Assembly (NCBI GenBank): GCA_965221905.1
Contig: OZ244922.1
Coordinates: forward strand, 2,304,001 to 2,368,000
DNA: 64,000 nt
From: Chloroflexota bacterium
GTDB taxonomy: Bacteria; Chloroflexota; UBA11872; VXOZ01
Reading direction: 5' to 3'
Part shown: positions 40,129 to 42,233 of the stretch, one piece after another
Layout of the letters: the number at the start of each line of letters is the position of its first letter
How positions within the stretch are numbered: position 1 is the stretch's first letter
Notes under the pieces: model-generated
Told to the model about the DNA's origin: nothing
What the model saw: the letters and a program-made list of their open reading frames with translations, nothing else
Databases searched by the model: none
Translations under genes and position numbers: made by a program

Positions 40129-40724
40129 CCGGCTGGACCCGCAGGGCGCATACTTTACCTTGGGAAGGAAGTGCCCTGCAATACCCTCAGCACGATCAGC
40201 TCATCCATCTAAAGGCATCCTCAGAAGGCTCTTGGGCAATGCCACAGAGGGCTTCTGCGCGATGCCTGAGAGGGCTCTCGGTCGACGCGACGGAGATTGT
40301 ATGCGCTTTGCCGTTGACAGCGTAATCCGTTCGCCCTGAGCCTGTCGAAGGACGAACAGCCCGGGAAGACGATCCCCAAATTGCGCTTCCGTTCGCCCTG
40401 AGCCTGTCGAAGGACGAACAGCCCGGGAAGACGATCCCCAAAGTGCGCAATCCGTTCGCCCTGAGCCTGTCGAAGGGTGAACAGCCGGGGAAGACGATCC
40501 CAAAGTGGACTTCCATTCGCCCTGAGCCCGTCGCAGGGTGCACAACCGGGGAAGACGATCCCCAATGTGCGCAATCCGTTCGCCCTGAGCCTGTCGAAGG
40601 GCGCACAGCCAAGGAAGACGATCCCCAAAATTCCCTTCCGTTCGCCCTGAGCTTGTCAAAGGGTGAACAGCCAAGGAAAACGATCCCCAATGTGCGCTTC
40701 CGTTCGCCCTTATATCTTGGAAAA

Positions 40725-40890
40725 GGGAGATAGAATGGGAGCAGGCGTGGCAGACCGGTTCGTCCTAGGTCTGGCAGACCGTGGCTCAGAGTGGTCGCCA
40801 CACCTGCCGAGCTCCCCCAGAGCCCGAACAGTTACCGGGACACGAAGTCCGTATCCGTAAGGCAGGGACTGCATGGGAGCGCCAGCCATA
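40725..40890 (+). ncRNA. Putative IS110 bridge RNA (boundaries approximate)
   Basis: Two stem-flanked loops. The first holds GTTCGTCCT (40758-40766) and GGCTCAG (40783-40789), matching target GTTCGCCCT|GAGCC. The second holds ACAGTTACC (40828-40836) and GTAAG (40857-40861), partially matching donor ACAGTTTCT|TAT. Confidence 0.75.
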
Positions 40891-40909
40891 GTATAGCAGG
40901 AGGGAGGCA

Positions 40910-41845
40910 ATGGCAGTGTACGTGGGGATCGATGTATCGCAAGACCGGCTTGACGTGGGAGTAGCTGACGAAGCGCAGTCGTGGTGGGTTGGGAACGATG
41001 CGGCAGGGATAGAGGAGCTGCGGGAGCGTCTGCTTGCATTGGCGCCGCAGGGCGTGGTGTTGGAAGCGACGGGTGGGCTGGAGAGCGCGGTGGCAGGAGA
41101 GTTAGTGGCAGCGGGGCTGGAGGTGACGGTCGTGAACCCGCGGCAGGTGCGGGACTTTGCGCGCGCCACGGGACGGTTGGCGAAGACGGACGCGATAGAT
41201 GCAGGCATGCTGGCGCGCTTTGGAGAAGCGGTGCAACCGGAGGCGCGCGCACTGCCGGACGCGCAGACGCAGGAGTTGCGGGGCTTGGTAGCGCGGCGGC
41301 GGCAGGTGGTCGCGATGCTGACTGCCGAGTGCAACCGTCTGCCCCGGGCCACCAAGCGGGTTCGTCCCCAGATCAAGTCCCACATTGCCTGGCTGCGGCG
41401 GCAACTCGATAGCCTGGACCAGGAACTGGCGGCGCTCGTCCAAACCAGCCCGCTGTGGCGTGCCCGTGAGAACCTGCTGTCCAGCGTACCGGGAATTGGC
41501 CCGGTTACGGCTACCTGCTTGCTGGCAGAACTCCCGGAACTGGGCAGGCTCAATCGCAAGCAGATTGCCGCGCTGGTGGGGGTCGCTCCCCACAACCGGG
41601 ATAGCGGCACCTACCGGGGCAAGCGCAGCGTCTGGGGCGGCAGAGCCCCGGTGCGCGCCAGTCTCTACATGGCTACCTTGGTCGCAACCCGCTTCAATCC
41701 GGTGATCAAAATCTTCTATGACCGACTGTGCGCCGCAGGCAAACCCAAGAAAGTGGCCCTTACCGCCTGCATGCGCAAGCTGCTCACCATCCTCAACCGC
41801 ATGCTCAATACACAGTCGCCCTGGAAACCAACCACCGCACCTTGA
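40910..41845 (+). CDS. IS110 family transposase/recombinase (DEDD RuvC-like + Tnp domain), 311 aa
   Basis: [38 protein letters not shown], catalytic-Ser loop RDSG and [18 protein letters not shown]. Confidence 0.96.
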
Positions 41846-42233
41846 CACCCAAGACAGTTTCTGAGCCTGTCGAAGGGCGCACAGCCGGGGAAGACGATCC
41901 CCCAAATGCACTTCCGTTCGCCCTGAGCCTGTCGAAGGGCACACAGCCGGGGAAGACGATCCCCGAAGTGCGCTTCCGTTCGCCCTGAGCCTGTCGAAGG
42001 GTGCACGGAAGTGGTGCTTCATAACACCGGCCGTTCATACTTCGACAAGCCTGTGCTGAGCCTGTCGAAGTGCTCAGCACGAACGGCCAAAGCTATTCCA
42101 CTACGAACGCCTACCCAAGTCTCCCAGACCGTCTCTCTCGGCGAGCTAGAGCCCTAAAAAACCGGTTGTTGTGATACACAACTCGTACCCCAGTCCCGAC
42201 TACGCTCCATTCGCTCGCAGGATTGCCCTAACC

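What the first reader, a model, noticed from the sequence alone, without database searches (positions are those of the whole stretch)
40709..41862. Complete IS110 bridge-recombinase system with guides readable against its own target and donor
Seen: the element sits seamlessly in repeat unit 7 at GTTCGCC-CT-GAGCC. In the ~200-nt non-coding left end, a stem GCAGGCGTGGC/GCCACACCTGC encloses GTTCGTCCT (8/9 match to left target GTTCGCCCT), a GGTCT/AGACC hairpin and GGCTCAG (exact reverse complement of CTGAGCC). A second stem GCTCCC…GGGAGC encloses ACAGTTACC (vs donor ACAGTTTCT), a GGAC/GTCC hairpin and GTAAG (vs CTTAT). The 311-aa recombinase retains DEDD and the Tnp Ser. Established: IS621-type IS110s use a bispecific bridge RNA, a CT core and REP targets. 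Inference: a compact, probably functional orthologue programmed against a different host repeat family, usable as a new RNA-guided recombinase.
Basis: partly seen in the sequence, partly recalled or inferred. Interest (0 to 1): 0.85.

Follow-up and report, generated by a model that had tools for sequence, protein, structure and literature searches.

The report
IS621-type bridge-RNA insertion sequence, six copies
This is a small, intact, recently mobile IS110-family insertion sequence whose left end encodes a two-loop bridge RNA that reads both its insertion site and its own ends; it is a correct call, but an ordinary new member of a well-described family.

Summary
Window 40711-41862 is a 1152-bp element between two CT dinucleotides, inside unit 7 of a 62-bp tandem array. 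It encodes a 311-aa DEDD/Ser recombinase. This protein matches IS621 (E 2.4e-42) and ISCro4 (E 1.6e-44) over its full length, with all five catalytic residues aligned.

The 199-nt left end holds two stem-loops with internal loops, and their guides fit target and donor in the IS621 geometry. The genome carries six copies, five identical and one differing at one base. All six sit at GTTCG(T/C)C-CT-GAGCC in a REP-like hairpin, and 4 of 6 match the left target guide 9 of 9. A related genome has one orthologous site empty and uninterrupted.

Stems covary in relatives from several phyla, and guides change with the flanks. The junction predicted from the guides was found once, with 0-1 mismatch, in 6 of 6 lineages. 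Of 88 distinct elements, 64 carry the exact complement of their own right target, against 700 of 6022 non-cognate pairs.

Not shown: an RNA from the left end, a circular junction, or enzymatic activity.

Verdict: a genuine new member of a known kind.

The parts
40326..40710 (+). 62-bp tandem array, 6.2 units, each unit carrying the REP-like target. The last unit is cut by the insertion.
   Evidence: sequence
40702..40710 (+). Left target plus core (GTTCGCC-CT) of this copy.
40711..41862 (+). The insertion sequence, 1152 bp, counted with the right-hand CT.
   Evidence: Six copies in the genome with these exact ends
40711..40909 (+). Non-coding left end (LE), 199 nt.
40713..40718 (+). TATCTT, a -10-like hexamer. 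It lies 17 nt after the right-end TTGACA only once the ends are joined in a circle.
   Evidence: Positions. LE positions 3-8 read TAT(C/G)Tn in 29 of 30 distinct left-end starts. Function is inferred.
40715..40720 (+). Subterminal inverted repeat, left arm TCTTGG.
40741..40807 (+). Target-binding stem-loop: outer stem 40741-56 with 40793-807, and distal hairpin 40768-80.
   Evidence: covariation
40758..40766 (+). Left target guide GTTCGTCCT (7 nt plus the CT core).
   Evidence: 9-of-9 match to the flank of 4 of 6 copies and 8 of 9 for the other 2. Relatives change guide and flank together.
40783..40790 (+). Right target guide GGCTCAG, the reverse complement of CT-GAGCC. The next base, A, can pair with donor position 7 (T) and is a handshake-guide candidate.
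   Evidence: The handshake reading was made by eye.
40811..40880 (+). Donor-binding stem-loop: outer stem 40811-16 with 40875-80, inner CCC 40823-25 with GGG 40865-67, and hairpin 40838-50.
   Evidence: inner pair covaries C-G to A-U
40828..40835 (+). Left donor guide ACAGTTAC, against the right end ACAGTTT-C. It is mismatched at donor position 7.
   Evidence: The same mismatch is kept in L008 and L053.
40853..40861 (+). Right donor guide, bipartite: AU, then CCG, then UAAG, against CT-TATAT.
   Evidence: Read. IS621 has the same split.
40910..41845 (+). Recombinase, 311 aa. D8, E52, D94, D97 and S232 correspond to IS621 D11, E60, D102, D105 and S241.
41842..41847 (+). TTGACA, a -35-like hexamer overlapping the TGA stop codon, 15 nt from the element end.
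   Evidence: TTGA sits at this offset in 43 of 78 distinct right ends.
41849..41854 (+). Subterminal inverted repeat, right arm CCAAGA.
41854..41862 (+). Left donor plus core (ACAGTTT-CT).
41863..42001 (+). Right target GAGCC and the rest of the tandem array (2.3 units counted from 41861).

Best explanation
An autonomous IS110-group (IS621-type) insertion sequence. The proposed life cycle is as follows.
- The element excises as a circle.
- Joining the right and left ends brings the right-end TTGACA 17 nt upstream of the left-end TATCTT.
- Transcription then runs rightward through the left end and yields a bridge RNA of about 150-165 nt, and probably the recombinase mRNA.
- The second internal loop pairs in the same way with the element's own joined ends.
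- The DEDD/Ser recombinase then exchanges strands at the CT core.
- This places the element seamlessly at the stem/loop junction of a REP-like hairpin that is abundant in this genome.

Shown here: element anatomy, protein family and catalytic residues, a conserved and covarying RNA fold, guide/target and guide/donor complementarity that changes with the flanks in relatives, site-specific multi-copy insertion, and an orthologous empty site.

Inferred from IS621: transcription, strand, circle, promoter and chemistry.
For: Protein:
- Pfam PF01548 (2.7e-21) and PF02371 (1.7e-19).
- NCBIfam NF033542 'IS110 family RNA-guided transposase', 224.8 bits against a cut-off of 140.
- phmmer to ISCro4 9t56 at 1.6e-44 and IS621 8wt6 at 2.4e-42, over residues 4-305.
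- D8/E52/D94/D97/S232 align with the IS621 DEDD and S241 residues.

Copies and sites:
- Six copies, five identical and one with a change in a hairpin loop. All six lie at CCGTTCG(T/C)CCT | GAGCCTGTCGAAGG.
- Empty sites in the genome: 10 with T and 51 with C. Occupied: 4 with T and 2 with C. Fisher p = 0.015.
- The orthologous site of copy L004 in the related genome G001 has no element and reads GTTCGTCCTGAGCC uninterrupted.

RNA:
- The same two-loop architecture appears with unrelated stem sequences in six lineages.
- On 83 distinct rows, 91.4% of cells are paired, against 22-46% when the partner is slid.
- 26 of 32 pairs change on both sides, against 9-16 when slid, and 0 of 500 shuffles reach the observed values. 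The smaller set gave the same picture.

Guides:
- The predicted right junction was found once, with 0-1 mismatch, in 6 of 6 lineages.
- 64 of 88 distinct elements carry the exact complement of their own CT+RT 7-mer upstream of the CDS, against 700 of 6022 non-cognate pairs.
- The near paralogue L053 (74% nt identity) keeps the same stems but has different guides and matching different flanks.

Promoter pieces:
- TTGA at the same offset in 43 of 78 distinct right ends.
- TAT(C/G)Tn at left-end positions 3-8 in 29 of 30 distinct left-end starts.
Against: - No RNA evidence for the left end. In two RNA libraries, contigs covered only parts of the CDS, at depth 3-5, and DNA carry-over cannot be excluded.
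- No circular junction was seen in four runs, all of them contigs.
- The single-sequence fold is not exceptional: z = -1.44 on the + strand and -2.09 on the - strand.
- The donor-loop segment folds more stably on the - strand in most relatives.
- The only Rfam match, sX15, lies on the - strand and is below its cut-off (43.9 bits against 55).
- This element's target-loop stem has a C.A mismatch where L008 and L053 have C-G.
- The covariance-model alignment fitted the window's own row poorly, 17 of 31 pairs. The covariation statistic therefore rests mainly on the acidobacterial and other relatives.
- The G.U excess that favours the + strand (187 against 82 cells) includes inherited pairs and is not independent.
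- No promoter was predicted in the integrated copy.
Confidence: 0.9

Rival explanations
1. The element is a true IS110 with a bridge-RNA locus, but these copies are no longer mobile. They would be domesticated or recently silenced, for instance because of the C.A mismatch in the target-loop stem and the guide mismatch at donor position 7.
For: - C.A mismatch where close relatives have C-G.
- LDG position 7 is mismatched.
- No circular junction and no left-end RNA were seen.
Against: - Five identical copies plus one with a single change.
- An empty orthologous site in G001.
- G001's single copy differs at 2 of 1152 bases, while its flanks are 91.8-94.1% identical. This implies very recent movement.
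- The donor position 7 mismatch is conserved in L008 and L053.
- Durrant et al. report this position as mismatch tolerant (passage seen).
Confidence: 0.1
2. The functional left-end transcript is made from the - strand, as for the Rfam family sX15. It would act as an antisense regulator of the recombinase rather than as a guide.
For: - The Rfam sX15 match is on the - strand, E 3.1e-5, at all six copies.
- The - strand fold is as good or better.
- In Xanthomonas both sX15 and its complement asX7 were reported as confirmed by Northern blot (Schmidtke 2011, PMC3300014, passages seen).
Against: - Read on the - strand, the loop order (donor loop first) and the guide lengths (short guide on the 5' side) would be the reverse of IS621.
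- G.U cells outnumber A.C cells on the + strand, 187 to 82.
- The conserved -35 and -10 pieces face rightward.
- An antisense RNA would not explain why loop bases change with the flanks.
- An antisense transcript could exist in addition to the bridge RNA.
Confidence: 0.05
3. The guide/flank matches are by-products of the element carrying a fragment of its target repeat, and carry no guiding function.
For: The left end contains two short stretches identical or complementary to the repeat.
Against: - The matches sit in the unpaired sides of a conserved internal loop.
- They change independently in lineages with unrelated targets: 32 distinct right-target 7-mers were seen, with 64 of 88 cognate exact matches.
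- The donor loop matches the element's own ends rather than the repeat.
Confidence: 0.02

Closest known systems
IS621 (E. coli) bridge recombinase and bridge RNA. Durrant et al. 2024, PMC11208160 (sections 5, 6 and 12 and passages read). Hiraizumi et al. 2024, PMC11208158 (passages read). PDB 8wt6.
   Same: - DEDD RuvC-like domain plus Tnp domain with a catalytic Ser, five of five residues aligned.
- ncRNA in the left end, with the target loop first and the donor loop second.
- 9-nt LTG that includes the CT, RTG on the 3' side, and an 8-nt LDG.
- Bipartite RDG.
- CT core and a REP-type target.
- -35 in the right end and -10 in the left end.
- A candidate handshake base after the RTG that is complementary to donor position 7.
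   Different: - Smaller: 311 aa against 326 aa.
- Natural RTG of 7 nt, against 4 nt in wild-type IS621.
- Subterminal inverted repeat of 6 bp, against the 2-3 bp described for the IS110 group.
- Too little room for the 5' stem-loop if transcription starts after the -10-like hexamer.
- Different target repeat, and a Chloroflexota host.
ISCro4 (PDB 9t56) and the IS622 line of engineered bridge recombinases (bioRxiv 10.1101/2025.05.14.653916; search listing and abstract only).
   Same: Best PDB sequence match, E 1.6e-44, over residues 4-305.
   Different: Nothing was compared at RNA level.
ISPpu10 (P. putida), with its target stem-loop as a second specificity layer (bioRxiv 10.64898/2026.03.19.712850; abstract and outline only).
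   Same: All insertions fall in copies of one conserved hairpin-forming intergenic repeat.
   Different: Here the left target plus CT forms the 5' arm of the hairpin, and the crossover lies at the stem/loop junction. In ISPpu10 the stem-loop is described as a GC-rich 5' extension. A structural requirement was not tested here.
Rfam RF02234 sX15 (Xanthomonadaceae sRNA)
   Same: It is the only Rfam family that matches, at all six copies. My model built from IS110 left ends hits the type sX15 locus on the opposite strand, 46.7 bits, E 3.3e-9.
   Different: The match here is below the gathering score and antisense to the bridge-RNA reading. The Xanthomonas locus has no IS110 recombinase next to it in the two plasmids examined.

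Membership tests
IS110 family, IS110 group (IS621-type bridge recombinase system) | [quoted passage not shown] | tested here: met
   E 2.7e-21, residues 5-147
IS110 family, IS110 group (IS621-type bridge recombinase system) | C-terminal Tnp domain (PF02371) with the conserved Ser | tested here: met
   E 1.7e-19, residues 188-270. S232 aligns with IS621 S241.
IS110 family, IS110 group (IS621-type bridge recombinase system) | DEDD catalytic residues (IS621 D11, E60, D102, D105) | tested here: met
   D8, E52, D94 and D97 in the phmmer alignment. IS621 numbering taken.
IS110 family, IS110 group (IS621-type bridge recombinase system) | Curated family model over its cut-off | tested here: met
   NF033542, 224.8 bits against 140
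IS110 family, IS110 group (IS621-type bridge recombinase system) | Left end much longer than right end, with the ncRNA in the left end | tested here: met
   Left end 199 nt; right end 17 nt after the stop codon. Criterion.
IS110 family, IS110 group (IS621-type bridge recombinase system) | Two stem-loops with large internal loops, conserved and covarying | tested here: met
   Caveat: the window's own row was poorly fitted by the model.
IS110 family, IS110 group (IS621-type bridge recombinase system) | 5' stem-loop before the two guide loops | tested here: inconclusive
   A hairpin is predicted at left-end positions 3-22, but it overlaps the -10-like hexamer. Relatives with longer left ends have clear 5' hairpins.
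IS110 family, IS110 group (IS621-type bridge recombinase system) | First loop: 5' side matches the left target plus core (8-9 nt); 3' side is complementary to core plus right target (4-7 nt) | tested here: met
   9 of 9 in 4 of 6 copies and 8 of 9 in the other 2; 7 of 7 in 6 of 6 copies. Covaries in relatives.
IS110 family, IS110 group (IS621-type bridge recombinase system) | Second loop matches the element's own joined ends | tested here: met
   LDG 7 of 8, mismatched at donor position 7. RDG is UAAG plus AU.
IS110 family, IS110 group (IS621-type bridge recombinase system) | Short core (CT) at both junctions, seamless insertion, one core in the empty site | tested here: met
   Six copies; orthologous empty site; 61 empty paralogous sites.
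IS110 family, IS110 group (IS621-type bridge recombinase system) | Short subterminal inverted repeat flanking the donor sequence | tested here: met
   CCAAGA/TCTTGG, 6 bp. Three to four bp in relatives, read by eye.
IS110 family, IS110 group (IS621-type bridge recombinase system) | Promoter rebuilt across the RE-LE junction | tested here: inconclusive
   TTGACA, a 17-nt spacer, then TATCTT on joining. The pieces are conserved. No transcript data.
IS110 family, IS110 group (IS621-type bridge recombinase system) | ncRNA is expressed | tested here: inconclusive
   RNA-library contigs cover CDS parts only. Contigs cannot show a small RNA.
IS110 family, IS110 group (IS621-type bridge recombinase system) | Circular intermediate | tested here: inconclusive
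   No RE-LE joint in four runs of contigs.
IS110 family, IS110 group (IS621-type bridge recombinase system) | Recombinase binds the RNA and recombines target with donor; guides are reprogrammable | not testable with these tools
   Natural retargeting in the paralogue L053 is the nearest proxy.
Rfam RF02234 sX15 | Score at or above the gathering threshold on the modelled strand | tested here: not met
   43.9-45.6 bits against 55, on the strand opposite to the CDS.

The most novel reading that the evidence does not exclude
This would be a naturally minimised bridge system with several distinctive traits.
- It is 1152 bp, with a 311-aa enzyme.
- Its RNA is about 150-165 nt and may lack the 5' stem-loop.
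- Its native right target guide is 7 nt.
- A U in its left target guide would let one RNA address two variants of a host hairpin repeat, by Watson-Crick pairing at T sites and wobble at C sites.
- A conserved pre-exchange mismatch at donor position 7, paired with a matching handshake base, would bias the reaction forward.

The element would also be spreading horizontally between related Chloroflexota. Two genomes carry copies that differ at 2 of 1152 bases, although their orthologous flanks differ by 6-8%.

If these traits are functional, it could be a more compact or more specific chassis than IS621.
Probability: 0.2. Interest if true: 0.5.

Novelty: new member of a known kind. Interest (0 to 1): 0.35.

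Why it matters
It adds a well-resolved natural example to the bridge-recombinase family:
- an intact, very compact element;
- its own census of 67 cognate sites, 6 of them occupied;
- an orthologous empty site;
- close paralogues that were naturally retargeted.

This makes a convenient system for asking how guide wobble and target hairpin structure shape site choice. It does not change what is known about how IS110 elements work.

The side observation may help RNA-family curation: Rfam sX15 appears to be the antisense strand of a bridge-RNA-like locus.

Tried and rejected
- **Single-sequence folding as evidence.** The z-scores were -1.44 (+ strand) and -2.09 (- strand), which is not informative.
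- **RNAalifold on a plain MAFFT alignment.** It gave a poor consensus because the stems of different lineages were misaligned. I replaced it with a hand-set structure and a covariance model.
- **Settling the strand by comparing minimum free energies of the two strands.** The donor-loop segment folds better on the - strand in most rows, but in lineage-specific alternative shapes. I rejected this as a test.
- **RNA and circular-junction evidence from public runs.** No cover of the left end appeared in two RNA libraries, and no RE-LE joint in four runs. All were contigs, so absence shows nothing.
- **Empty-site search in G001.** For copies L002 and L006 the repeat itself is absent or the region has diverged, so the comparison is unusable. 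L004 gave a clean empty site. L003 and L005 were not tried.
- **Promoter and terminator scan of the integrated left end.** It found 0 sites.
- **Looking for an IS110 recombinase next to the Xanthomonas sX15 locus.** tblastn gave only E > 1, Pfam gave 0 families for the neighbouring 98-aa ORF, and none is annotated in two plasmids.
- **Literature on sX15.** No paper in the held library contains both sX15 and IS110. The term asX7 in its Xanthomonas sense appears only in the 2011 paper. One search listed only 10 of 51 papers.
- **Supplementary files.** They were closed and not requested. Durrant et al.'s supplementary tables of orthologues may already list this element or close relatives.
- **Not used:** The search for homologous proteins, structure prediction and complex prediction. 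ISfinder could not be consulted.
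Full report
**What is there**

The window carries a 1152-bp element at 40711-41862. CT lies immediately to its left (40709-10) and forms its last two bases (41861-2). It interrupts unit 7 of a 62-bp tandem array, with 6.2 units before it and 2.3 after.

The element has three parts:
- a 199-nt non-coding left end;
- one ORF, 40910-41845, of 311 aa;
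- a 17-nt right end.

**The protein**

- It has Pfam DEDD_Tnp_IS110 and Transposase_20 domains.
- It passes the NCBIfam equivalog 'IS110 family RNA-guided transposase', 224.8 bits against a cut-off of 140.
- Among solved structures it matches ISCro4 (1.6e-44) and IS621 (2.4e-42) over residues 4-305.
- In that alignment D8, E52, D94, D97 and S232 stand at the IS621 positions D11, E60, D102, D105 and S241. Hiraizumi et al. report that mutating any of these abolishes recombination (PMC11208158, passages read).

**Copies and insertion sites**

The genome is one contig of 3.52 Mb. It holds six copies, five identical and one with a single change in a hairpin loop.

All six are flanked by CCGTTCG(T/C)CCT on the left and GAGCCTGTCGAAGG on the right. 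Four have T at the variable position and two have C.

The genome also holds unoccupied sites: 10 reading GTTCGTCCTGAGCC and 51 reading GTTCGCCCTGAGCC. Occupancy is therefore 4 of 14 for T sites and 2 of 53 for C sites (Fisher p = 0.015). The C sites include tandem units and so are not independent.

The site is the 5' arm and loop of a REP-like hairpin. The left target plus CT forms the arm, and the crossover falls at the stem/loop junction.

A related genome, G001, has flanks 89-96% identical. At the orthologous place of copy L004 it has no element, and the site reads GTTCGTCCTGAGCC uninterrupted with one CT.

G001 has one full copy, in the orthologous array of the window's copy but after about three units rather than six. 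That copy differs at 2 of 1152 bases, while the flanks are 91.8% and 94.1% identical.

Together these facts indicate recent, site-specific, seamless mobility, and probably recent exchange of the element between lineages. The exchange is an inference.

**The left-end RNA**

Folding gives two stem-loops with large internal loops.

First stem-loop (target-binding):
- Outer stem 40741-56 with 40793-807, with one bulge and one C.A mismatch.
- 5' side of the loop: GTTCGTCCT (40758-66).
- Distal hairpin: 40768-80.
- 3' side of the loop: GGCTCAG (40783-89).

Second stem-loop (donor-binding):
- Outer stem 40811-16 with 40875-80.
- Inner CCC/GGG.
- 5' side of the loop: ACAGTTAC (40828-35).
- Hairpin: 40838-50.
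- 3' side of the loop: AU-CCG-UAAG (40853-61).

This is the IS621 plan. In IS621 the target loop comes first and the donor loop second. The 5' side pairs with the bottom strand over 8-9 nt, and the 3' side with the top strand over 4-7 nt (PMC11208160 section 6). The IS621 guides are LTG 9 nt, RTG 4 nt, LDG 8 nt, and an RDG split 2 + 4 (PMC11208158 passage).

How the guides fit here:
- The LTG equals the left target plus core at 9 of 9 positions in 4 of 6 copies.
- At the C sites the guide U would face a bottom-strand G, which is a wobble (inference).
- The RTG is the exact complement of CT-GAGCC in 6 of 6 copies.
- The LDG matches the right end ACAGTTT-C except at donor position 7.
- This mismatch is kept in the close relatives L008 and L053. 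Durrant et al. report this position as mismatch tolerant (passage).
- The base after the RTG (A) is complementary to donor position 7 (T).
- In four other lineages that base is C and donor position 7 is G. I read this by eye. It fits the 'handshake guide' of IS621.

**Relatives**

Protein-guided scans returned 43 loci from genomes and 80 from metagenomes, at 34-99% amino-acid identity. The named genome records are Chloroflexota, Burkholderiales, Planctomycetota (including Tepidisphaeraceae), a Novosphingobium and a Paraburkholderia (partial matches only), and many Acidobacteriota.

The two-loop architecture recurs with unrelated stem sequences.

A covariance model built on a hand-set structure found one match upstream of the CDS on the CDS strand in 91 of 95 sources. 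On the 83 distinct rows:
- 91.4% of cells pair, against 22-46% with the partner slid.
- 26 of 32 pairs show changes on both sides, against 9-16 slid.
- No shuffle of 500 reaches the observed values.

Two caveats apply. The alignment is fitted to the model. The window's own row was fitted poorly, with 17 of 31 pairs.

**Guides change with flanks**

- A 14-mer composed of LDG positions 1-7 plus the complement of the RTG occurs once, with 0-1 mismatch, directly after the CDS in 6 of 6 lineages.
- Among 88 distinct elements with both ends available, 64 carry the exact complement of their own CT+RT 7-mer in their upstream end. Among non-cognate pairs the figure is 700 of 6022.
- Most of the 24 misses are one-base target variants or wrongly placed right ends.
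- L053, a paralogue in G002 at 74% nucleotide identity, keeps the window element's stems. It carries different guides, and its flanks fit them: the RTG 7 of 7, and the LTG 7 of 9 plus one wobble, read by eye.

**Promoter pieces**

TTGACA (41842-47) overlaps the stop codon and ends 15 nt before the element's end. After circularisation it would lie 17 nt upstream of TATCTT (40713-18).

TTGA stands at that offset in 43 of 78 distinct right ends. Left-end positions 3-8 read TAT(C/G)Tn in 29 of 30 distinct left-end starts. This agrees with the junction promoter described for IS621.

No promoter is predicted in the integrated copy.

A 6-bp subterminal inverted repeat, CCAAGA/TCTTGG, brackets the donor sequence. 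This is longer than the 2-3 bp reported for the IS110 group.

**Strand**

Folding energies do not decide the strand. The + strand is favoured by four things:
- loop order and guide lengths relative to IS621;
- the orientation of the promoter pieces;
- an excess of G.U over A.C cells, 187 against 82, which is not independent;
- protein homology to enzymes whose RNA is known to be sense.

**What is not shown**

- Two RNA libraries, labelled sponge metagenome, hold contigs identical to parts of the CDS only.
- No run showed an RE-LE joint.
- All four runs were contigs, so these blanks carry no weight.
- Activity and reprogrammability were not tested.

**Comparison and verdict**

All defining features that could be tested were met.
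- The 5' stem-loop, the junction promoter, RNA expression and the circular intermediate remain inconclusive.
- RNA binding and recombination chemistry could not be tested with these tools.

The kind is well described. Durrant et al. analysed 5,511 target-ncRNA pairs and predicted bridge RNAs in 85.7% of IS110-group elements, and later work is abundant (listing).

This is therefore a new member of a known kind. It is notable mainly for its compactness, its clean natural target census and its retargeted paralogues.

Noticed in passing
window 40732-40887 (- strand); L050 1379-1537: The only Rfam match is sX15 (RF02234), on the strand opposite the bridge-RNA reading, at all six copies and below its cut-off. 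Conversely, my model built from IS110 left ends hits the type sX15 locus on Xanthomonas plasmid pXCV183 on the opposite strand (46.7 bits, E 3.3e-9). The 2011 paper says sX15 and asX7 are complementary and have 10 homologues in S. maltophilia. So RF02234 looks like the antisense strand of a bridge-RNA-like locus. No IS110 gene lies beside it in the two plasmids examined. No held paper contains both sX15 and IS110.
   Followed up: partly
G000 genome-wide; window 40326-42001: A REP-like hairpin family is abundant in the genome. The motif CTGAGC(C/T)TGTCGAAG occurs 214 times. Most of the 10 empty T-variant sites folded form a stem of about 11-15 bp with an 11-nt loop. In the window the motif is embedded in a 62-bp tandem array.
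   Followed up: partly
L051 (G001) 1501-2652, against window 40711-41862: The element in a related genome differs at 2 of 1152 bases, while the orthologous flanks are 91.8% and 94.1% identical. It sits after about 3 array units instead of 6. This suggests recent horizontal spread or independent insertion into the same array.
   Followed up: partly
L053 (G002), left end about 1500-1700 and right end after the CDS: A paralogue at 74% nucleotide identity keeps the same stems but carries different target guides, and it sits in a different site that fits them: the RTG 7 of 7, the LTG 7 of 9 plus one wobble, read by eye. This is a natural case of retargeting.
   Followed up: partly
Acidobacterial relatives, e.g. 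L018 1297-1503: In these relatives the closing stem of the donor loop contains the GTG start codon of the recombinase, so RNA folding and translation start may be coupled. They insert at TGTCATC-CT-GAGCG in a different hairpin-like repeat, which shares CCTGAGC with the Chloroflexota target.
   Followed up: no
window 40763 in run X5: Contigs of another study carry C at left target guide position 6, together with neighbouring changes that match the L008-type element. Both guide variants therefore circulate in public metagenomes.
   Followed up: no
window 39367-40128 (+) and 42234-43100 (-): The array and the element lie between two ORFs that read as ordinary genes: 253 aa on the + strand and 288 aa on the - strand. 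Neither is interrupted by the insertion. Neither was searched against any family.
   Followed up: no
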